Positions 5,297-62,174 of a stretch of DNA of 64,000 bases are shown piece after piece; the stretch's first letter is position 1, and each line of letters begins with the position of its first letter. The stretch lies in sequence record OR352956.1, one strand, 5' to 3'. The DNA comes from Escherichia phage AV126. The translations under genes were made by a program, and so were the position numbers. The notes under the pieces were generated by a model. That model searched no databases, had not been told where the DNA came from, and was given only the letters and a program-made list of their open reading frames with translations.

Positions 5297-5716
5297 ATGA
5301 ACATTAAATCAAATAATCCAGCTTACTCCTTCGATAACGCTTTTTGTCACGGTAGCGCCGCCAAAGGCTTCGAAATCGATGGTAAATTGGTTATCGTGAA
5401 CGTTGACGGGGAAGAGGTTGCAGTGTATCCGGTAAACGATGTTAAAAGCCGTTTACAATGCCGCATGGATGTTACCGCATATCAGCTTGATCCGGTCCGT
5501 GTAGTTGCCCTGGTATTAGAGGAAGAGATCAAAGCAATGCATCACAGTAATAAGTTTATTGGTGACGCGCAGGATAATATGAACGTTTGCCGCCATAAAG
5601 TTAATGAAGCATTGAAAGAATATGGTTTTAAGGATCTGATGATCAAACGTGATGAAAAATTCCGCTTTCGTAATGACCTGGCAAACCGGATCTACTCAAT
5701 CTATGAAGCGTTATAA
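5297..5716 (+). CDS. hypothetical protein (139 aa)
   Basis: ORF with AAGGA SD-like motif; followed by terminator. Confidence 0.55.
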   Translation: MNIKSNNPAYSFDNAFCHGSAAKGFEIDGKLVIVNVDGEEVAVYPVNDVKSRLQCRMDVTAYQLDPVRVVALVLEEEIKAMHHSNKFIGDAQDNMNVCRHKVNEALKEYGFKDLMIKRDEKFRFRNDLANRIYSIYEAL

Positions 5717-5730
5717 TCGACAACAAAACA

Positions 5731-5759
5731 AGGGGCGCACCAAGCGCCCTTTCTTTTTG
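5731..5759 (+). terminator. rho-independent terminator (same hairpin as at 166-195)
   Basis: GGGGCGCACCAAGCGCCC hairpin plus TTTCTTTTT. Confidence 0.6.
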
Positions 5760-6299
5760 CCTGAACAATGTTGATAGCTTTCGCCTATGAAAAACCGACA
5801 CAGAACAAAACTGAATAAATCGCGGTATCGAGCTAATCAACCATCAAACGAATAACCATACATCCCAGGGCAACAGGCTGTTAGAGAGCTATTTAGAGCG
5901 GTTAAAATCGATCTACAACCAACAACAAACCATCAAAAACACCCTTTTACCTCCTTTCTAGTGCAATGATAACCATTATCATCTACCCATGATTATCTAT
6001 GCAATATAAGCGCATAATTATAATGTTGATAATAGTTCGCAACAACTAACCAACAAACAACATAAAACAATAAGCAAACTAATCATAATCAAAGGAATAA
6101 TAGCAAGATGATTGATAACGACAAACAATCAAACCATGATGAATACTAAGCAAGATAACGATAACACGACAAAACAACCAACTAACGAACAATAACAAAC
6201 GAAACCATTAAAAGATCAACTATTAGCAAAATAGTGTCTATTGCCATAATAGTGACTGAATGAAATCATTACAAAACGAATCATTCCAAGGATCATCAT

Positions 6300-6460
6300 T
6301 AGCACGCTACGCCGGACACGTAGCGAGCTAATAATAAGCCAACTACACCCCAACAATCATAACCATCGGTGACGGTTATTTCTTGTTACTGCGTAGCTTG
6401 CAATAATTGCAAGCGTAATGACGCTTACACTTATTGCGCTGGCTTATTATTAGCATTATA
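6300..6460. repeat. nested inverted-repeat cluster in non-coding region
   Basis: 15-bp inverted repeat GCTAATAATAAGCCA (6327-6341) / TGGCTTATTATTAGC (6440-6454) enclosing palindrome CTTGCAATAATTGCAAG and hairpin CGCTACG-CCGGACA-CGTAGCG. Confidence 0.6.
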
Positions 6461-7275
6461 TGTAATTACCAAGATCATAACATTAGCGCAATAACAATAA
6501 TCATTACAATAATTACATAAGGAAACAATTAGCATAGCAATAATTATGGGGGCAATGGGAGGATGATTATCATCATTCCGATACATTGCACACTATGCAC
6601 ATAATAAGATAAAAAGCAATAATCTTGGGGGCGAAATGTTACCGCCACAGGCGGGAATGTTGAGCATCTTCTCTTAAACGTAAATAAAATCAGAAAATTC
6701 TTGATTTATTTTAGTTTTTATGTTAATAAACGTTTAAATAATAATCATTCTCATATAAATAATAGTCTGCTTGTCATGAGCGGGATTAGTTGACATTGTT
6801 CCGTCATATGATGAAGTTGCCAAGCCATTGATAAATAAGTGTTTGTGTGATTTATAATCAAGTGGCCCACCTTGTCGCTACGTTGGCATGAGCCTTGCAT
6901 AAGTCATTGAATACGAATGATAATTATTCTCATTCGCATGATATTTGGGAATTGTCGCTGCGTGGACCTGACGGCCCGAAAATTCGCGTTAAGCACTTCT
7001 TACGTATGCGCCATGATTTTTGCCATATCATATTGATTCTATTAGATATTCTTGCCATGATTGCCATGAAACAGGGTGTCCCGAAATAATCTCTCCCCGT
7101 AGATATTTTGGGTTACTTTTTATACAAGAGTGGGGTGTCAAAAATAATCGGTATATATGGGATAATTGATAGGAATCCCCTATGATAATTCGATTGTAAT
7201 TCCCTAAGATTGATCGTATGATGTTGGTGATTGATGATTGCCATGAAAGATGGCTAACGATGAGAGGAGATTATC

Positions 7276-7644
7276 ATGCAAGAGAGTAAAAATATTCCGT
7301 TGAGCAGTGCAGCATTGATTCAATTCTACAAAGCATGGATGGCTGATCACTACAGCATGGATCGCACGGAGAATGGACTGTGTTTATGTATTCATCATTT
7401 TGTGCGATCTCATCTTATGAAAGATGTGGAGAATCCCCGATGGTATGCCGACATAATAGATAGCTTGTTGTTTGAGATGCGTGCTCAGTTCAAAGACGCT
7501 GGCATTGATACGTGCGCACCCTTCAACACTGGATATGCGGATTACTTGATTGAAGTGGAAGATAAAATGTGTCACCTGAATCCACTTCGCATTCAGTGGG
7601 TGAAAGATCGCATTGAAGATGCAAATAATGCTTGCATTGAATAA
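7276..7644 (+). CDS. hypothetical protein, paralog family A (copy 1 of 5)
   Basis: GAGAGGAGA SD; shares the GLC...YPF...WVKDR pattern with the ORFs at 10714, 14040, 17338 and 18643. Confidence 0.6.
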   Translation: MQESKNIPLSSAALIQFYKAWMADHYSMDRTENGLCLCIHHFVRSHLMKDVENPRWYADIIDSLLFEMRAQFKDAGIDTCAPFNTGYADYLIEVEDKMCHLNPLRIQWVKDRIEDANNACIE

Positions 7645-7714
7645 AAATGTCTGTATGATGTTTGTATAAGATATGCAATACCGCGCATAACAAACAGCTA
7701 ATGAGGAGATTGGA

Positions 7715-58179: not shown

Positions 58180-58370
58180 TTCTTTACGTACTCCATGATT
58201 GGGGTATGGTCGCCAGTAAGCGTAACACGGCTGTAGGACACATCTTGTGTCTTCAATGTATCAATCCACTCTAAGAAGTGTTCTTTCGCTTCTGTGTAGT
58301 TCTGTGTGCCTTTAACAACGTGTATACCATCTAGGGTTACACGAAATACCATTTGAATAACGTCTTTCAT
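58176..58370 (-). CDS. hypothetical protein (64 aa)
   Basis: coupled ORF. Confidence 0.4.
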   Translation of the reverse strand: MKDVIQMVFRVTLDGIHVVKGTQNYTEAKEHFLEWIDTLKTQDVSYSRVTLTGDHTPIMEYVKK

Positions 58371-58466
58371 TTCTTACCTCCTTTGTTGTCAAAGTAGCTT
58401 ACCAGAACATCGTGAACCACACACATGGCAAAAATCAGAACAATTGTTGCCAGGATTGGGTTCTCA

Positions 58467-58790
58467 CTAATTAGTGCTATCATCTTTAACCACCTCCAAT
58501 TGCCTTTCGAGTTTGACTCTGTTTGAGAACTGATAATGACACAACTTACATTGCATGTCAACAATCTGATCGTGATTTAACCCTACAATTTTAACTTCCT
58601 TTGCACCATCCCACTCCAAATACTCAAAGCCATCCAAATGATTACTCTTGTCCAACAGGAATGCTATCTGCTGCCATTCAATCTGAATATCATTTAAATG
58701 ATATGCTGCACAGAAGATATCCTCATAGTAAAAGACGATCATTGTCATTGCTTCGTCTAGTACAACTACCTCTTGTCTTGTAAATCTCAC
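58467..58790 (-). CDS. hypothetical protein (107 aa, GTG start), first gene of the minus-strand block
   Basis: AGGAGG SD upstream of GTG. Confidence 0.45.
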   Translation of the reverse strand: MRFTRQEVVVLDEAMTMIVFYYEDIFCAAYHLNDIQIEWQQIAFLLDKSNHLDGFEYLEWDGAKEVKIVGLNHDQIVDMQCKLCHYQFSNRVKLERQLEVVKDDSTN

Positions 58791-59039
58791 TCTAGCCTCC
58801 TAAACGCGTCTCTGACGCACTTTTTATATATAAGATGATAAATCACCTTACCTAGTAAGTAAACTTGCTCTACGAGCCTCTTATGAAGCTTGTGTTATAG
58901 GCTATACTATTGCTACCTGTTTAAGCAAGGTTTTGCACACAGAAAATAATTTTTAATAAAACTCTTGACTTTTGTGTTCGAAGTATGCTACCCTAGAAAT
59001 CTATTAACGAGCGCAGCGAGTTAAGGTTTTAGGTTGTTG

Positions 59040-59230
59040 ATGTAGTACTCTGTACTCAAGTACTGTACTCCGTACTAGATTAATAATTATTAAATATTAA
59101 TAATAAATAATTATTAGATCTAACGAACAGGTACAGTGTATCAGAACTGGTACGTACAGATCAACTTCTATCAATTAAAAATAAAATAATAAATTATTAT
59201 AAATAATACTTGATCTATAGATCAGTATGA
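59040..59230. repeat. GTACT-repeat and palindrome cluster in divergent intergenic region (candidate origin or control region)
   Basis: five GTACT units within 59044-59078; perfect palindromes TTAATAATTATTAA (59080-59093) and TGATCTATAGATCA (59211-59224). Confidence 0.55.
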
Positions 59231-59270
59231 AGTACAGTACGTAACATCTTAACAAGAATGGAGGTGTACA

Positions 59271-59456
59271 ATGATTAGTGAGAATCCGTGCAAATGGCAT
59301 CATGTGCCTATTAAAGATTGTATGTCTTGTAATCCACGTTCTATTTATAACATTGCATCTTATGATGATGACAATGTGTTAGACGATGATGAAGGCTGGG
59401 AGGATTTAGATTGGACTGATTATGAAACCAAAAAGGATAAAATTATTCCTAGTTGA
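59271..59456 (+). CDS. hypothetical acidic protein (61 aa)
   Basis: GGAGGTG SD. Confidence 0.45.
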   Translation: MISENPCKWHHVPIKDCMSCNPRSIYNIASYDDDNVLDDDEGWEDLDWTDYETKKDKIIPS

Positions 59457-59493
59457 CTTAAGATATCCTTCGTGCTAAACTAGAAGTGAGGAG

Positions 59494-59745
59494 ATGCCGA
59501 TCACTCCCCATTTGGGGTTCGAAGGATATATGCAAAATAGTTTTTATTTTAGGTGCCGTGCTTGTAATAGGCATTTGACAAACCACTCCAGACGTGATAA
59601 AAATGGAGTCATCAAGGAATCAGACCTCTGTTCTATTTGCACAGGTTTGGCTTTTGATGATAGTCCCGAAAGGGTTTATCAGCATCAATGTATAACAGAC
59701 GTTCTCGTGTCAAACTTGGTAGAGGACGAACAACTAACAGATTAG
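59494..59745 (+). CDS. hypothetical zinc-ribbon protein (83 aa)
   Basis: CRACNRH ... CSICTG Cys pairs. Confidence 0.45.
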   Translation: MPITPHLGFEGYMQNSFYFRCRACNRHLTNHSRRDKNGVIKESDLCSICTGLAFDDSPERVYQHQCITDVLVSNLVEDEQLTD

Positions 59746-59753
59746 GAGGAACA

Positions 59754-60002
59754 ATGTCTCTATTAGAAAAACACGTGTTTGAAGATGGTAACGGCAATGC
59801 AGTTTTTCTTTTCCATCCAGAAAAATACACATCTGAAAACAATGGTACAACTTCTATTGTAATCACTAAAGATGTTAAAGTTATTGATTTCTTGGCTCTG
59901 ATGCGAGAGATGGATCTTGAAATTAATACTTTTAACGCAGAAGCTTTGGTTGTTGCTCTTCTGGAAAAGAAAGATAGTGAAGAAGTAGCAGAATATGCTT
60001 AA
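59754..60002 (+). CDS. hypothetical protein
   Basis: ORF 59688..60002 trimmed to ATG at 59754 with AGGAGGA SD. Confidence 0.45.
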   Translation: MSLLEKHVFEDGNGNAVFLFHPEKYTSENNGTTSIVITKDVKVIDFLALMREMDLEINTFNAEALVVALLEKKDSEEVAEYA

Positions 60003-60248
60003 ATAACTATTGACAAACGTATCCTTCATATGTTAGGATACGTTCATCAAGTGTGGTAACAGGGTCGTTGACTTTTGTTAAGAGGGGCTTGCACTGCGGT
60101 AGTGTTAGAGACTACTTCTTCAGAGGTTAGCTACCAAAGAGGAAAAGGAATAGTCTCGGCTCAAGAACTTTTACGCTGAAAGTTGGGCTTGGTCTTAGAG
60201 AATGTAGCGGTTCTCTACAATCGTCAGCGTCTCTGTTACCACATTTAT

Positions 60249-60323
60249 GGCCCTGTAGCTCAATGGGAGAGCTGTCGGCTCATAACCGATAGGTAGCTGG
60301 ATCGAAACCAGCCAGGGCCACCA
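60249..60323 (+). tRNA. tRNA with CAT anticodon (Met or lysidine-Ile2 type)
   Basis: cloverleaf folded by eye: acceptor GGCCCTG/CAGGGCC, anticodon loop CTCATAA, T-arm GCTGG-ATCGAAA-CCAGC, CCA encoded. Confidence 0.7.
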
Positions 60324-60325
60324 AC

Positions 60326-60400
60326 GTCTTTATGGTGTAATGGATAGCACAGGAGTCTTCTAAACTCTTAGTCAAGGTTCGATTCCTTGTAAAGACACCA
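60326..60400 (+). tRNA. tRNA-Arg (TCT)
   Basis: acceptor GTCTTTA/TAAAGAC, anticodon loop CTTCTAA, T-loop TTCGATT, CCA encoded. Confidence 0.7.
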
Positions 60401-60645
60401 GAACATTTTAACATGAATTAGCTCAAGTGATTTGAACCCACTACTGATCATGGTGGCAGAGAATGAGGCAAGTATGTCAGACATTATAAACAAAGGCCAC
60501 GGTTATATTAGAAGACATAAATGCTCGAAGAGCACCGTTCGTGGAGAACGGGGGTTGGTGGAGTCACCATTCATGGTAAAATGTTTTAAAAAACTATTGA
60601 CAACAAACATTATTTTATGTTAGATTATAAGTATGGAAGGGCAAA

Positions 60646-60727
60646 TCGACGTGGCGACGAAAACGGTCTTGAAAACCGCCGAGCTTGAAAGAGCCTTGGG
60701 AGTTCGACTCTCCCTCCTTCAGCCAGA
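60646..60727 (+). tRNA. tRNA-like element, possibly degenerate tRNA-Ser (TGA)
   Basis: canonical T-arm GGGAG-TTCGACT-CTCCC and candidate anticodon loop CTTGAAA, but imperfect acceptor and D arms; promoter-like TTGACA at 60597. Confidence 0.3.
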
Positions 60728-60729
60728 TT

Positions 60730-60815
60730 AGGTAGATTGGTGAAATGGTAGCCACGACAGTTTGCTAAACTGTAGTCGGAAACGGCGTGTAGGTTCGAGT
60801 CCTACATCTACCGCC
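60730..60815 (+). tRNA. tRNA-Ser (GCT)
   Basis: acceptor GGTAGAT/ATCTACC, anticodon loop TTGCTAA, long variable arm, G discriminator, CCA encoded. Confidence 0.7.
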
Positions 60816-60946
60816 AAGTTCTTTTTAATGTAGCTTACTTTAGCAGAGTAAATCTTCGGCAAGTGGCGGTAACCACTTTACCGATAACTCATAGTTAGTG
60901 GTGCGAACACTGGCTATTTTAAAAAGAATTTAAATATTAGTATTTA

Positions 60947-61034
60947 GGTGAGTTAATTCCGTAGGGGTAGCGGGGCAGACTGTAAATCTGTTATCATTGC
61001 GATTCGGGTGGTTCGACTCCATCACTCACCACCA
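60947..61034 (+). tRNA. tRNA-Tyr (GTA)
   Basis: acceptor GGTGAGT/ACTCACC, anticodon loop CTGTAAA, long variable arm, T-loop TTCGACT. Confidence 0.7.
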
Positions 61035-61040
61035 AATTAA

Positions 61041-61126
61041 GATGAGTTGGCTGAATGGTTTAAGCGGCGGACTGTTAATCCGTGTTCGAAAGAACAATAT
61101 AGGTTCGAATCCTATACTCATCGCCA
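61041..61126 (+). tRNA. type-II (long variable arm) tRNA with GTT (Asn) anticodon
   Basis: perfect acceptor GATGAGT/ACTCATC, Ser-like D arm, anticodon arm GCGGA-CTGTTAA-TCCGT, variable hairpin GTTC-GAAA-GAAC, T-arm ATAGG-TTCGAAT-CCTAT, G discriminator. Confidence 0.55.
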
Positions 61127-61133
61127 GAATTAT

Positions 61134-61211
61134 GGACTTGTAGAGTTAAGGTAAACCCCCCAGTCGCCAATAGGCTTCTGGAATTGCAGGTATCGAATCC
61201 TGCCGAGTCCC
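61134..61211 (+). ncRNA. tRNA-like element, unresolved
   Basis: 7-bp acceptor-like pairing GGACTTG/CGAGTCC and T-arm-like GCAGG...CCTGC but no canonical anticodon arm found by eye. Confidence 0.25.
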
Positions 61212-61217
61212 AGCATT

Positions 61218-61292
61218 GCTCCTATAGTATAATGGCTATTACAACGGTTTTGTAATCCGTGGATCTCTGTTCGATTCAGTGTGGGAGCACCA
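61218..61292 (+). tRNA. tRNA-Thr (TGT)
   Basis: acceptor GCTCCTA/TGGGAGC, anticodon loop TTTGTAA (one mismatch in anticodon stem), CCA encoded. Confidence 0.55.
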
Positions 61293-61565
61293 ACACAACA
61301 TTAAGAGCACTGTGATTGATCGTCGTATCCTGTGCACAAGGTCTGCTCGAAAGACAGTGTTCTTAGTATTGTGTTGATCACAAAAAGAGTCACCCGAAAC
61401 TTGACCGGAGTAGGGTTGGATGGGGAAAAATGAGAAGCGGCTCTCCCATTGACAGCAACGAAGAATAATATTTGACTTTGGTTTTGTATTATTTTAAGTT
61501 AGCTTACCGAACGTAGGGCTAGTCACCCAACGGGATACTCGTCACTGTCCCAATCAATAAAAGTC

Positions 61566-61595
61566 TTGACAACAAATAGTAAAATGTAGTATAGT
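61566..61595 (+). promoter_or_regulatory. sigma70-like promoter (TTGACA - 18 nt - TATAGT) driving the downstream tRNA group
   Basis: consensus -35 and near-consensus -10 about 11 nt upstream of tRNA-Gly. Confidence 0.6.
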
Positions 61596-61606
61596 AAATA
61601 TATAGG

Positions 61607-61680
61607 GCGTTCTTGGTGTAGCGGTAGCATTCCGTCCTTCCAAGTCGGCGGCACGAGTTCGATCCTCGTAGAACGCTCCA
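61607..61680 (+). tRNA. tRNA-Gly (TCC)
   Basis: acceptor GCGTTCT/AGAACGC, anticodon loop CTTCCAA, U discriminator, CCA encoded. Confidence 0.65.
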
Positions 61681-61778
61681 AATTATTTAATAAAGGGTTG
61701 CCAGAAAACTTTCTCTTTTACTCATGGTTTTCTCCTTCTCTCACACTTCTTCTGGTTGCCCTTCATTAAATGATTTAT

Positions 61779-61854
61779 TGGTTTGTAGTGTAGTCCGGTA
61801 GCACACGACACTTTGACTGTCGTAGGTTTGGTTCAAATCCAGACAGACCAGCCA
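61779..61854 (+). tRNA. tRNA-Gln (TTG)
   Basis: acceptor TGGTTTG/CAGACCA with U1-A72, anticodon stem CGACA/TGTCG, loop CTTTGAC, G discriminator. Confidence 0.7.
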
Positions 61855-61859
61855 TATAA

Positions 61860-61936
61860 CGGAATTTAGCTCAGTTTGGTAGAGCATACGCTTTGGGAGC
61901 GTAGGGTCGCAGGTTCGAATCCTGCAATTCCGACCA
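61860..61936 (+). tRNA. tRNA-Pro (TGG)
   Basis: acceptor CGGAATT/AATTCCG, D arm GCTC-AGTTTGGTA-GAGC, anticodon loop TTTGGGA, T-loop TTCGAAT. Confidence 0.75.
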
Positions 61937-61942
61937 ATTTAA

Positions 61943-62016
61943 TGTTTCGTAGTTCAATGGTAGAACCCACGACTGATAATCGTGAGACACAAGTTCGATT
62001 CTTGTCGAAACAACCA
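61943..62016 (+). tRNA. tRNA-Ile (GAT)
   Basis: acceptor TGTTTCG/CGAAACA, anticodon stem CACGA/TCGTG, loop CTGATAA, T-loop TTCGATT. Confidence 0.75.
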
Positions 62017-62018
62017 GT

Positions 62019-62091
62019 TTCCCGTTAGACTTACAGGATAAGAGTTCCACAGCTTATTGTGATGCTGGTTCGAATCCAGCACGGGATACCC
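62019..62091 (+). ncRNA. tRNA-like element, anticodon unresolved
   Basis: canonical T-arm GCTGG-TTCGAAT-CCAGC and acceptor-like TTCCCGT/ACGGGAT, but D and anticodon arms could not be folded by eye. Confidence 0.3.
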
Positions 62092-62094
62092 AAT

Positions 62095-62174
62095 AGCGGG
62101 ATAGAGGAGTCTGGTCGTCCTCGCCAGTTTCATATGCTGGAGATCATCGGTTCGAATCCGATTCCCGCCTCCAA
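62095..62174 (+). tRNA. tRNA-Met (CAT), 1:72 mismatch
   Basis: acceptor AGCGGGA/TCCCGCC with unpaired A1/C72, anticodon stem CCAGT/GCTGG, loop TTCATAT, T-loop TTCGAAT. Confidence 0.6.

What the first reader, a model, noticed from the sequence alone, without database searches (positions are those of the whole stretch)
59040..59230. GTACT-repeat and perfect-palindrome cluster in the divergent control region upstream of the tRNA cluster
Between the start of the minus-strand block (58790) and the first plus-strand gene (59271) lie five GTACT units within 35 bp, the perfect 14-bp palindromes TTAATAATTATTAA and TGATCTATAGATCA, and GATC-flanked GTAC repeats. Iterated short repeats plus AT-rich palindromes between divergent operons are typical of replication origins or multi-operator switches.
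Basis: seen in the sequence. Interest (0 to 1): 0.45.

Follow-up and report, generated by a model that had tools for sequence, protein, structure and literature searches.

The report
Repeat-rich spacer between two phage promoters
The GTACT repeats and palindromes are real and far from random, but they lie between two conserved promoters in the main divergent control region of a phAPEC8-like E. coli phage, and most are recent lineage-specific additions; the conserved oddity is a small DNA hairpin next to them that hints at, but does not prove, a replication start site.

Summary
Five GTACT lie in 32 bp (59045-59076), both 14-bp palindromes are present, and three GTAC sit between two GATC. The window is a Phapecoctavirus (phAPEC8-like, about 150 kb). 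GTAC is 3.3-fold depleted genome-wide, yet 11 of the window's 68 copies fall in this 480-bp gap. The cluster is unique in the genome, as are the two longest A/T-only runs.

Two sister clades (phiWec, BME3/Justusliebigvirus) reveal a conserved skeleton:
- a leftward promoter;
- rightward promoter P1 (58965-58994);
- an invariant 12-mer GAGCGCAGCGAG in a hairpin (58997-59029);
- an AT tract;
- promoter P2 (59210-59238).

TGATCTATAGATCA is P2's -35 box plus spacer, and several close isolates have it broken. The GTACT array, a 7-bp tandem (GTACTCN)x5, and the first AT tract are confined to the phAPEC8 lineage. Their GTAC sites are kept no better than GTAC sites elsewhere.

Best reading: a tandem-promoter control region with a lineage-specific repeat expansion. 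An origin remains plausible (about 0.3) on other grounds. P1 reads into the least stable DNA of the genome. The 12-mer contains the very stable d(GCGCAGC) mini-hairpin, and with its flanking bases it gives a 14-mer found just past the origin of ColE1 plasmids. The genome terminus lies elsewhere.

The parts
58467..58790 (-). First gene of the minus-strand block (107 aa, GTG start). PHROG family of unknown function.
58794..58818 (-). Leftward RBS (AGGAGGCT on the minus strand, 58794-58801) and a short GC hairpin GCGTCTCTGACGC (58806-58818) in the leftward leader. This stretch is kept, with a few substitutions, in the phiWec clade.
58835..58863 (-). Leftward sigma-70-like promoter PL (TTTACT-17-TATCAT). 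The -10 side (GATGATAAATCACCTTACC on the plus strand) is kept in phiWec and partly in BME3.
58943..58961 (.). 19-bp A/T-only run just upstream of the P1 -35 box, in the position of an UP element. It is the fourth-longest A/T run in the window and in phAPEC8.
58965..58994 (+). Promoter P1: TTGACT, 18-bp spacer, TGc TACCCT (extended -10). The bases TTGAC and TGnTACCCT are invariant in three clades.
   Evidence: The scan tool missed it only because TACCCT matches 3 of 6 positions.
58997..59029 (+). Conserved hairpin at the predicted start of the P1 transcript and on the non-template strand: AAATC-TA-TTAAC-[GAGCGCAGCGA]-GTTAA-GGTTT. The 12-mer GAGCGCAGCGAG (59009-59020) contains the mini-hairpin GCGCAGC (59011-59017) flanked by GA/GA.
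   Evidence: The 12-mer is invariant in three clades while the stem changes to CCCCC/GGGGG in BME3. It occurs once per genome. With its flanking C and T it forms the 14-mer CGAGCGCAGCGAGT found in ColE1-type plasmids. d(gcGCAgc) has a reported Tm of 67 C.
59044..59076 (.). GTACT array: five units in a 7-bp period (GTACTCT, GTACTCAA, GTACT, GTACTCC, GTACTAG). It is self-complementary because GTAC is a palindrome.
   Evidence: Absent from phiWec and BME3. Variants among close isolates are shown.
59079..59116 (.). AT tract 1: 38 bp of A/T only, the longest such run in the genome. It contains the palindrome TTAATAATTATTAA (59080-59093) and is a diverged copy of AT tract 2.
   Evidence: (repeat families D1, D4). 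Absent as such from the sister clades.
59116..59130 (.). Block AGATCTAACGAACAG, recognisable in all three clades as GATCTaAcaGACAg.
   Evidence: direct reading. The MAFFT alignment does not place BME3's copy in register.
59131..59162 (.). Three further GTAC sites (59131, 59150, 59154), with GATC at 59117 on the left and at 59159 on the right.
   Evidence: Individual sites are lost in anhysbys and phAPEC8.
59173..59208 (.). AT tract 2: 36 bp of A/T only, the second-longest run in the genome. It sits directly upstream of the P2 -35 box, in the position of an UP element, and all three clades have an AT tract at this position.
59210..59238 (+). Promoter P2: TTGATC, 17-bp spacer, TACAGT. The palindrome TGATCTATAGATCA (59211-59224) is its -35 box plus spacer. 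A GATC lies in the spacer in all three clades.
59260..59456 (+). RBS GGAGG (59260-59264) and the first plus-strand ORF (61 aa, 59271-59456). PHROG family of unknown function.

Best explanation
The flagged 190 bp is the spacer between two tandem rightward sigma-70-type promoters, inside the phage's main divergent control region.

Predicted, not measured: host RNA polymerase starts leftward at PL (58863-58835) into the DNA-metabolism genes. It starts rightward at P1 (58965-58994) and P2 (59210-59238) into three small ORFs, the tRNA cluster and then the lysis, terminase and structural genes. Further promoters of the same type follow at 59453, 60010 and 60597.

The three flagged kinds of element have different natures.
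1. TGATCTATAGATCA is simply the -35 hexamer (TTGATC) and spacer of P2.
2. The second AT tract is P2's upstream A/T-rich element. The first AT tract, which holds TTAATAATTATTAA, is a diverged local duplicate of it.
3. The five GTACT are a 7-bp-period tandem array, (GTACTCN)x5.

The array and the first AT tract together form an expansion of roughly 35-65 bp found only in the phAPEC8 lineage. It lies between a conserved P1-proximal hairpin and a conserved GATCTAAC block. It most likely arose by slippage or duplication. It is tolerated in a GTAC-purged genome because extra sites at one spot add little restriction risk. That cost argument is my inference.

The conserved functional core is P1 plus the hairpin plus P2, not the repeats.
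For: - Identity and layout of the phage and the region.
- P1, the 12-mer and P2 are conserved in three clades while the sequence between them is replaced. The hairpin-to-GATCTAAC distance is 86 bp here, about 52 bp in phiWec and about 21 bp in BME3.
- The window holds a family of rightward TTGAC-N17/18-TGnTAnnnT promoters at 58965, 60010 and 60597. The scan tool adds one at 59453.
- Local duplication: repeat families D1 and D4, with a period of about 95-103 bp.
- Slippage is active in this stretch. TTAAGGT(TTT) is tandemly duplicated in UP17, Ro121lw and anhysbys. The array carries a 19-bp deletion in dw-ec. AT tract 2 is duplicated in BI-EHEC and in metagenome locus L024.
- There is no special retention of GTAC in the cluster. 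phAPEC8 keeps 9 of 11 cluster sites against 44 of 65 genome-wide, and BI-EHEC keeps 2 of 11.
- GTAC is depleted to 0.30 of expectation, alongside GGCC, CCGG and CTAG.
Against: - The promoters are predicted from consensus and conservation only. No transcription data exist for this genus.
- A neutral expansion does not explain why this one gap holds the genome's only GTAC cluster as well as its two longest A/T runs.
- It also does not explain why the 12-mer loop is invariant while the stem changes.
- The array is present in essentially all of roughly 64 close isolates. These are only 2-5% divergent, so this says little either way.
Confidence: 0.5

Rival explanations
1. Transcription-activated replication origin or single-strand initiation zone, in the manner of ColE1, the T7 primary origin, or T4 oriF/oriG.

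P1 transcription would open the least stable duplex of the genome. The displaced plus strand would fold into the GCGCAGC mini-hairpin, the self-complementary GTAC array and the AT palindromes. This would stabilise an R-loop whose RNA, or a primer laid on the displaced strand, starts synthesis by the phage's PolA and gp4-like primase-helicase.

In this reading the GTACT array and AT tract 1 are lineage-specific enhancers of melting and hairpin formation, not iterons.
For: - The two longest A/T-only runs and the two least stable 40-mers of the whole 148-kb genome lie here, just downstream of P1.
- GAGCGCAGCGAG occurs once per genome. It is invariant in three clades although the stem differs.
- It contains d(GCGCAGC), an experimentally very stable GNA-triloop DNA mini-hairpin. 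That class is reported at the G4, St-1 and alpha3 priming sites, at RSF1010 ssiA and at N4 hairpin promoters.
- The 14-mer CGAGCGCAGCGAGT is present in more than 2100 ColE1-type plasmids. In pECO29 it lies about 675 nt from the RNA II start and about 120-130 nt past the expected RNA/DNA switch. It is in the sense of RNA II, that is, on the displaced strand.
- The literature places the ssiA/n'-pas primosome site on that strand downstream of the switch. That the motif falls inside the site rests on my memory only.
- In the phage the motif has the same orientation relative to P1.
- The phage encodes a PolA and a primase-helicase.
Against: - There is no replication data.
- GC skew switches here, but it does so at all four changes of gene orientation, so it is uninformative.
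- The hairpin lies at about +1 to +30 of the P1 transcript, which fits an RNA 5' stem-loop equally well.
- In ColE1 the 12-mer is predicted to form a stem arm, not a loop. DNA-fold z-scores are unremarkable for both the phage and the ColE1 segment.
- rV5 has only a 100-bp junction with none of these elements.
- AT tract 1 and the array are missing from the sister clades.
Confidence: 0.3
2. The GTACT heptads are an operator array for a small phage-encoded DNA-binding protein, for example a ribbon-helix-helix protein of the omega/pSM19035 type that binds tandem 7-bp repeats. Alternatively they form a modification-sensitive switch at GTAC. Either would control read-through from P1 or the P1/P2 balance.
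For: - Five units in a roughly 7-bp period. Further CTGTAC/GTACAG copies lie in inverted orientation at 59131, 59154 and 59232.
- The cluster is unique in the genome.
- Small uncharacterised ORFs flank it, including a CxxC...CxxC zinc-ribbon ORF (59494-59745) that one relative's record annotates as a TFIIB-like zinc finger.
- GTAC is more strongly depleted in this lineage (0.30) than in partial sequences of sister clades (0.37-0.75).
Against: - The array lies 50-80 bp downstream of the P1 -10 box and 135-165 bp upstream of the P2 -35 box, so it overlaps neither core promoter.
- The spacing is irregular (7, 8, 5, 7 bp).
- It is absent from clades with the same promoters.
- No DNA-binding domain was detected in the neighbouring ORFs.
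- Units are lost in viable isolates: phAPEC8, dw-ec and BI-EHEC, if the BI-EHEC changes are real.
Confidence: 0.1
3. Classical iteron-type theta origin, with the GTACT units as iterons bound by a phage initiator next to an AT-rich unwinding element.
For: Repeats lie next to a pure-A/T tract, and the locus is unique in the genome.
Against: - The units are 5 bp rather than 17-22 bp and are not helically phased.
- No initiator gene lies beside them.
- The single DnaA-box-like TTTTGCACA at 58930 is mutated in anhysbys and absent from BME3.
- The repeats are absent from sister clades.
Confidence: 0.03
4. Packaging (pac) site or genome terminus located upstream of the terminase gene.
For: - The region lies about 3.5 kb upstream of the large terminase gene.
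- The nieznany GenBank record begins and ends inside this region.
Against: - Stephanstirmvirinae are reported to have short direct terminal repeats. The 342-bp repeat of BME3 lies in BME3's large non-coding region, whose flanks match window 5.7-7.7 kb. It does not map to this region.
- The nieznany ends overlap, with a 66-bp deletion in one copy. That looks like an assembly break in repetitive AT-rich DNA.
Confidence: 0.02

Closest known systems
Tandem sigma-70 promoters with A/T-rich UP elements in phage early and tRNA regions (the rV5-type 'host-like promoters with extended -10')
   Same: TTGAC -35 boxes, 17-18 bp spacers, TGn extended -10 elements and A/T tracts directly upstream of the -35 box. 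Several such promoters follow one another in the same direction. The rV5 authors likewise found only host-type promoters, 11 of them with extended -10 regions.
   Different: P1's -10 box is the non-consensus TACCCT, yet it is invariant across three clades. P1 is followed at once by an invariant hairpin. About 215 bp of non-coding, repeat-rich DNA separate P1 from P2.
ColE1/pMB1 origin region with its primosome assembly site (ssiA/n'-pas), and more generally transcription-activated origins (T7 primary origin, T4 oriF/oriG)
   Same: A promoter reads into the region and easily melted DNA lies downstream. The identical 14-mer CGAGCGCAGCGAGT sits on the strand that has the sense of the primer transcript.
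   Different: In ColE1 the motif lies about 675 nt from the promoter and after the RNA/DNA switch, whereas here it lies at +8 to +20. The predicted structural context differs (stem arm versus loop). No evidence exists here for an R-loop, RNase H processing or PriA dependence, and the phage has its own helicase-primase.
Mini-hairpin DNA d(GCGNAGC), as found at the G4, St-1 and alpha3 complementary-strand origins, RSF1010 ssiA and N4 virion-RNAP promoters
   Same: The heptamer GCGCAGC fits the GCGNAGC definition exactly. d(gcGCAgc) has been studied experimentally. Here too it lies in an initiation region.
   Different: Those examples act in single-stranded phage or plasmid DNA, or with N4's own polymerase. 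Here the genome is double-stranded, single-strandedness would have to come from transcription or melting, and no priming has been shown.
Heptad-repeat operators/centromeres bound by ribbon-helix-helix proteins (omega of pSM19035, 7-bp WATCACW repeats)
   Same: Five short units in a roughly 7-bp period, contiguous, some in inverted orientation nearby.
   Different: The spacing is irregular and the array does not overlap a core promoter. No ribbon-helix-helix gene was found, and the array is not conserved with the promoters.
GATC clusters at oriC, P1 oriR or P1 pac (methylation-sensitive cis sites)
   Same: A 4-bp palindrome is clustered at one unique control site. One nanopore-only assembly shows motif-specific G-to-A changes at GTAC, which could reflect base modification.
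   Different: No GTAC methylase was identified. A sister phage sequenced with the identical pipeline lacks the effect. GATC itself is not significantly clustered here.

Membership tests
Iteron-type replication origin | Three or more direct repeats of about 17-22 bp, usually helically phased | tested here: not met
   The units are 5 bp in a 7-bp period, with spacings of 7, 8, 5 and 7 bp.
Iteron-type replication origin | Adjacent A/T-rich unwinding element | tested here: met
   A 38-bp A/T-only tract starts 3 bp after the array. It is the least stable 40-mer in the genome.
Iteron-type replication origin | Cognate initiator gene at or next to the repeats | tested here: not met
   The flanking ORFs have no Pfam domain and fall in PHROG families of unknown function.
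Iteron-type replication origin | Repeats conserved, or co-varying with the initiator, among relatives | tested here: not met
   The array is absent from the phiWec and BME3 clades.
Transcription-activated origin (ColE1 / T7 / T4 oriF type) | A promoter directing transcription into the origin | tested here: inconclusive
   P1 is a conserved TTGACT-18-TGcTACCCT element. No transcription-start data exist.
Transcription-activated origin (ColE1 / T7 / T4 oriF type) | Easily unwound DNA downstream of that promoter | tested here: met
Transcription-activated origin (ColE1 / T7 / T4 oriF type) | Persistent RNA-DNA hybrid or primer processing, and initiation mapped at the site | not testable with these tools
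   This needs R-loop mapping, marker-frequency analysis or 2D gels.
Transcription-activated origin (ColE1 / T7 / T4 oriF type) | Single-strand initiation signal on the displaced strand | tested here: inconclusive
   The 14-mer is identical to the ColE1 post-origin segment and has the same strand sense. It belongs to the mini-hairpin class. Priming or primosome assembly was not tested, and fold z-scores are unremarkable.
Mini-hairpin DNA (GCGNAGC) | Heptamer GCGNAGC with a C:G closing pair and a G...A loop pair | tested here: met
   GCGCAGC lies at 59011-59017. The definition is and the measured stability.
Multi-operator switch | Repeated sites that overlap or abut the core promoters they control | tested here: not met
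   The array lies 50-80 bp downstream of the P1 -10 box and 135-165 bp upstream of the P2 -35 box.
Multi-operator switch | A DNA-binding regulator encoded nearby | tested here: inconclusive
   No domain hits were found. A zinc-ribbon ORF at 59494-59745 is annotated as a TFIIB-like zinc finger in one relative's record only.
pac site / genome terminus | Physical ends or terminal repeat mapping to the site | tested here: not met
   The BME3 terminal repeat lies in a non-coding region whose flanks match window 5.7-7.7 kb.
Known structured RNA (Rfam) | A match to a curated covariance model | tested here: not met
   No hit in 58300-60300 apart from the first tRNA.

The most novel reading that the evidence does not exclude
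A 150-kb lytic myovirus may start replication in the ColE1 manner. A host-type promoter (P1) fires into the most meltable DNA of the genome. The displaced strand carries an invariant GNA mini-hairpin, part of a 14-mer that is also found just past the ColE1 origin, and this acts as the single-strand initiation signal. In the phAPEC8 lineage the zone has been extended by a self-complementary GTAC array, possibly marked by a GTAC-specific DNA modification.

The exact 21-mer hairpin top also occurs in unrelated bacteria. The hairpin could therefore be a widespread, undescribed nucleic-acid signal.
Probability: 0.25. Interest if true: 0.65.

Novelty: new variant of a known kind. Interest (0 to 1): 0.4.

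Why it matters
Phapecoctavirus and its relatives are among the most frequently isolated E. coli therapy phages, yet no promoter, origin or regulatory site has been mapped in them.

This work gives a concrete and cheaply testable map of their main control region: PL, P1, the hairpin and P2. It also shows which eye-catching repeats are probably dispensable.

It singles out one 12-nt element as the best origin candidate. That element is invariant across genera and, with its flanking bases, gives a 14-mer also found in the ColE1 post-origin segment.

If the origin reading holds, it would extend transcription-primed, mini-hairpin-marked initiation from small plasmids and ssDNA phages to large lytic dsDNA phages. 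It would also give engineers a defined cis element.

If it fails, the region is an ordinary promoter cluster with a lineage-specific minisatellite.

Tried and rejected
- **Rfam.** No family matched in the gap or around the bacterial copies of the hairpin.
- **GC skew.** It switches at all four changes of gene orientation, as the rV5 authors also found, so it cannot locate an origin.
- **Genome terminus or pac site.** Rejected through the BME3 terminal repeat. The nieznany record ends look like an assembly break.
- **Host-factor sites, checked by eye.**
  - The LexA box (CTGT-N8-ACAG) is not formed.
  - The SlmA site GTGAGTACTCAC matches only in its central AGTACT.
  - The IHF consensus is not matched.
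  - The single DnaA-like box TTTTGCACA (58930) is not conserved.
- **Deeper relatives.** The Seunavirus homologue of ORF1 is not syntenic. The rV5 junction is 100 bp long and lacks every element.
- **Domain searches on nine flanking or candidate proteins.** Pfam found nothing relevant and PHROGs gave only unknown-function families.
- **Folding.** The RNA z-score for the P1 leader is -1.9. DNA z-scores are near 0, except for the AT-palindrome stretch at -3.2. The ColE1 segment is not predicted to be stable either, so folding energy does not discriminate.
- **The phage 38-mer hairpin against plasmids.** No significant hit.
- **The motif as a literature string.** No paper holds it. No transcriptome of the genus was found.
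- **BI-EHEC's loss of GTAC sites.**
  - The assembly is nanopore-only. The changes are strand-biased, 22 ATAC against 4 GTAT, and occur at non-synonymous sites too. That favours an artefact at a modified motif.
  - A sister phage sequenced with the identical pipeline keeps its sites.
  - GTAC sites also turn over quickly between Illumina- or Sanger-era genomes; phAPEC8 keeps only 68% of them. The question stays unresolved.

Full report
**What the window is.** The region matches 64 Phapecoctavirus genomes (phAPEC8-like, Stephanstirmvirinae, about 150 kb, E. coli myoviruses) at 94-99% identity. A more distant phiWec group matches at 80-90%. In phAPEC8 the genome has four blocks of alternating gene orientation. 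The finding lies in the 480-bp gap (58791-59270) at one of the two divergence points. To the left is the minus-strand block of ligase, exonuclease, nucleotide-metabolism and small genes. To the right are three small ORFs, ten tRNAs (60249-62173), then the spanin, large terminase and structural genes.

- GTAC is one of the four most depleted 4-bp palindromes in this phage. phAPEC8 has 157 copies against 524 expected, a ratio of 0.30, similar to GGCC, CCGG and CTAG.
- Despite this, 11 of the window's 68 GTAC lie in the gap.
- No other 200-bp stretch of the 148-kb phAPEC8 genome has more than 4.
- Shuffles of the gap never gave 5 GTAC in 35 bp.
- The gap also holds the two longest A/T-only runs in the genome, 38 bp at 59079-59116 and 36 bp at 59173-59208. 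These are its two least stable 40-mers.
- TTAATAATTATTAA is unremarkable inside a pure-A/T tract (18% of local shuffles). TGATCTATAGATCA is only mildly unusual (2.5%). The GATC density is ordinary.

**What comparison with relatives shows.** I read the syntenic gap in the phiWec179/190 group and in BME3, which belongs to the sister genus Justusliebigvirus, and aligned them. A common skeleton emerges.
1. The leftward RBS and leader hairpin are shared, as is the -10 side of a leftward promoter (PL, 58863-58835).
2. Rightward promoter P1 is TTGACT, 18 bp, TGcTACCCT (58965-58994). The bases TTGAC and TGnTACCCT are invariant.
3. Directly after P1 comes a hairpin whose 12-mer GAGCGCAGCGAG (59009-59020) is invariant. 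Its stem is TTAAC/GTTAA here and in phiWec but CCCCC/GGGGG in BME3.
4. A short block reads GATCTaAcaGACAg.
5. An A/T tract follows.
6. Rightward promoter P2 is TTGAyy, 17-18 bp with a GATC in the spacer, then TAsAGT (59210-59238).
7. The RBS and the first gene complete the skeleton.

P1 belongs to a series of rightward promoters of the form TTGAC-N17/18-TGnTAnnnT, at 58965, 59453, 60010 and 60597. This fits host-polymerase-driven expression of the tRNA region.

**Where the flagged elements fall on that skeleton.**
- TGATCTATAGATCA is P2's -35 hexamer and spacer. Point changes break the palindrome in phAPEC8, nieznany, tuntematon, ASO2A, UP17 and Schickermooser.
- AT tract 2 is P2's upstream A/T element.
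- AT tract 1, which holds TTAATAATTATTAA, is a diverged copy of AT tract 2 (repeat families D1 and D4). It has no counterpart in the sister clades.
- The five GTACT form a 7-bp-period tandem array: GTACTCT, GTACTCAA, GTACT, GTACTCC, GTACTAG. The array is also missing from both sister clades.
- The distance from the hairpin to the GATCTAAC block is 86 bp here, about 52 bp in phiWec and about 21 bp in BME3.
- This stretch is visibly slippage-prone. TTAAGGT(TTT) is tandemly duplicated in three isolates, dw-ec has a 19-bp deletion inside the array, and AT tract 2 is duplicated in BI-EHEC and in a metagenome contig.

**Is the GTAC identity of the array under selection?** Apparently not.
- GTAC sites turn over quickly across the genus. 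phAPEC8 keeps only 44 of 65 window sites at 3.2% overall divergence, and dw-ec keeps 17 of 23.
- The cluster's sites are kept at a similar rate, 9 of 11 in phAPEC8.
- BI-EHEC has lost 9 of the 11, mostly as GTAC to ATAC, as part of a genome-wide loss of about 60% of its GTAC sites.
- BI-EHEC is a nanopore-only assembly. The changes are strand-biased and hit non-synonymous positions too. A base-calling artefact at a modified motif is therefore likely.
- A sister phage sequenced with the identical pipeline does not show the effect. I leave the question open.
- Either way, nothing indicates purifying selection on the array.
- My inference is that a tandem expansion created several GTAC at once. 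A cluster then costs little more than a single site under restriction pressure.

**What is really conserved: the P1-proximal hairpin.**
- The 12-mer occurs once per genome.
- It reads C|GA|GC-GCA-GC|GA|G, that is, the heptamer d(GCGCAGC) flanked by potential tandem G.A pairs.
- d(gcGCAgc) is an experimentally characterised and unusually stable GNA-triloop DNA hairpin, with a Tm of 67 C.
- A recent review by the discoverers notes GCGNAGC/GCGNNAGC mini-hairpins at the G4, St-1 and alpha3 priming sites, in RSF1010 ssiA and in N4 virion-polymerase promoters.
- From memory I recognised the 12-mer as part of pUC/pBR322, and then verified it. A 61-mer containing it occurs in 2139 ColE1-type plasmids.
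- In the natural plasmid pECO29 it lies on the RNA II-sense strand. RNAI was found on the opposite strand. The motif is about 675 nt from the RNA II start and about 120-130 nt past the expected RNA/DNA switch.
- The literature places ColE1's ssiA/n'-pas on the strand exposed by Pol I extension, downstream of the switch. That the motif lies inside that site is my recollection, not a tool result.
- In the phage the motif has the same sense relative to P1.

**An unexplained extra.** The exact 21-mer hairpin top, TTAACGAGCGCAGCGAGTTAA (59004-59024), also occurs in unrelated metagenome contigs and two MAGs with 36-66% G+C. In most of them it caps a longer stem of different sequence, and it is sometimes in tandem copies. 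Rfam has nothing for these. I could not determine what these copies are.

**Weighing the readings.**
- The promoter architecture and the lineage-specific nature of the flagged repeats are shown by comparison.
- That these promoters fire is predicted, not measured.
- An origin function is an inference with real but indirect support. The cis elements are unique, a conserved promoter reads into the least stable DNA of the genome, and a priming-site-type mini-hairpin is shared with ColE1 in the same strand sense.
- Against an origin, the hairpin sits at the very 5' end of the P1 transcript. A role in RNA as a stabiliser or antiterminator fits equally well.
- Fold energies do not discriminate.
- The more distant rV5 has none of these elements.
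- No replication data exist.
The unit size and phasing are wrong, no cognate protein was found, the array does not overlap a promoter, and it is not conserved.
- A packaging role is excluded by the position of the terminal repeat in the sister genus.

**Verdict.** Most likely (0.5) this is a tandem-promoter control region carrying a lineage-specific repeat expansion. At about 0.3 the same module also serves as a transcription-activated origin, marked by the conserved mini-hairpin rather than by the GTACT repeats. Interest is moderate. The flagged repeats themselves are probably not the functional element, but the adjacent hairpin is a specific, testable and apparently undescribed lead.

Noticed in passing
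window 59004-59024; loci L014-L018, L020, L021, L023, L025, L026, L027: The exact 21-mer hairpin top TTAACGAGCGCAGCGAGTTAA occurs in unrelated metagenome contigs and two MAGs (a PVC-group bacterium and Ignavibacterium) with 36-66% G+C. In most of them it caps a longer stem of different sequence, and it is sometimes in tandem copies (115-118-bp or 57-bp periods). Where a downstream gene can be identified, the motif is in the same sense as that gene. No Rfam family matches.
   Followed up: partly
window about 5700-7700: This is a large non-coding stretch. Its homologue in the sister-genus phage BME3 contains that record's annotated 342-bp direct terminal repeat, so the physical genome ends of this phage probably lie here.
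   Followed up: partly
locus L069 (BI-EHEC, OL505078) compared with the whole window: About 60% of aligned GTAC sites are changed in BI-EHEC (29 of 48), 22 of them to ATAC, against 2.4% background divergence. The assembly is nanopore-only, which suggests modified GTAC in the virion DNA or real restriction-driven purging. A sister phage (dw-ec) sequenced with the identical pipeline keeps 17 of 23 sites.
   Followed up: partly
whole window and phAPEC8 genome (L003-L005): Four 4-bp palindromes are depleted to about 0.3 of expectation: GGCC, GTAC, CCGG and CTAG. GATC and TGCA are not depleted. GTAC sites also differ between isolates far more often than the background rate; phAPEC8 keeps only 68% of them at 3.2% divergence.
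   Followed up: partly
window 59453-59481, 60010-60039, 60597-60626: Further rightward promoters of the form TTGAC-N17/18-TGnTAnnnT lie ahead of ORF2, tRNA-Met and tRNA-Ser. The tRNA region appears to be driven by a chain of host-type extended -10 promoters.
   Followed up: partly
window 59494-59745 (+): An 83-aa ORF with two CxxC pairs (zinc-ribbon-like). It is conserved into Justusliebigvirus and is annotated as a 'TFIIB transcription factor zinc-finger' in the Klebsiella phage KP2025 record. Pfam gives no hit.
   Followed up: no
window 59025-59031 and relatives L065, L067, L068: The sequence TTAAGGT(TTT) directly after the hairpin is tandemly duplicated once in UP17 and Ro121lw and twice in anhysbys. 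This is a length polymorphism at the foot of the conserved hairpin.
   Followed up: no
L006/L007 (nieznany, NC_052659 record ends): The GenBank record begins and ends inside this intergenic region. The two ends overlap, and one copy has a 66-bp deletion (59135-59200 equivalent). This is probably an assembly break in repetitive AT-rich DNA.
   Followed up: partly
L004:16487-16966 (phAPEC8 gp117): This gene is annotated 'DNA methyltransferase' in RefSeq, but it matches the Pfam family for the XkdF-type phage serine protease (PF14550, E = 1.4e-11). It lies between the portal gene and gp116, whose BME3 counterpart is annotated as scaffold protein. The record's annotation is probably wrong.
   Followed up: no
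window 58687-58704: An 18-bp perfect palindrome, ATATCATTTAAATGATAT, the longest in the window, lies inside the first minus-strand gene about 100 bp from the gap.
   Followed up: no
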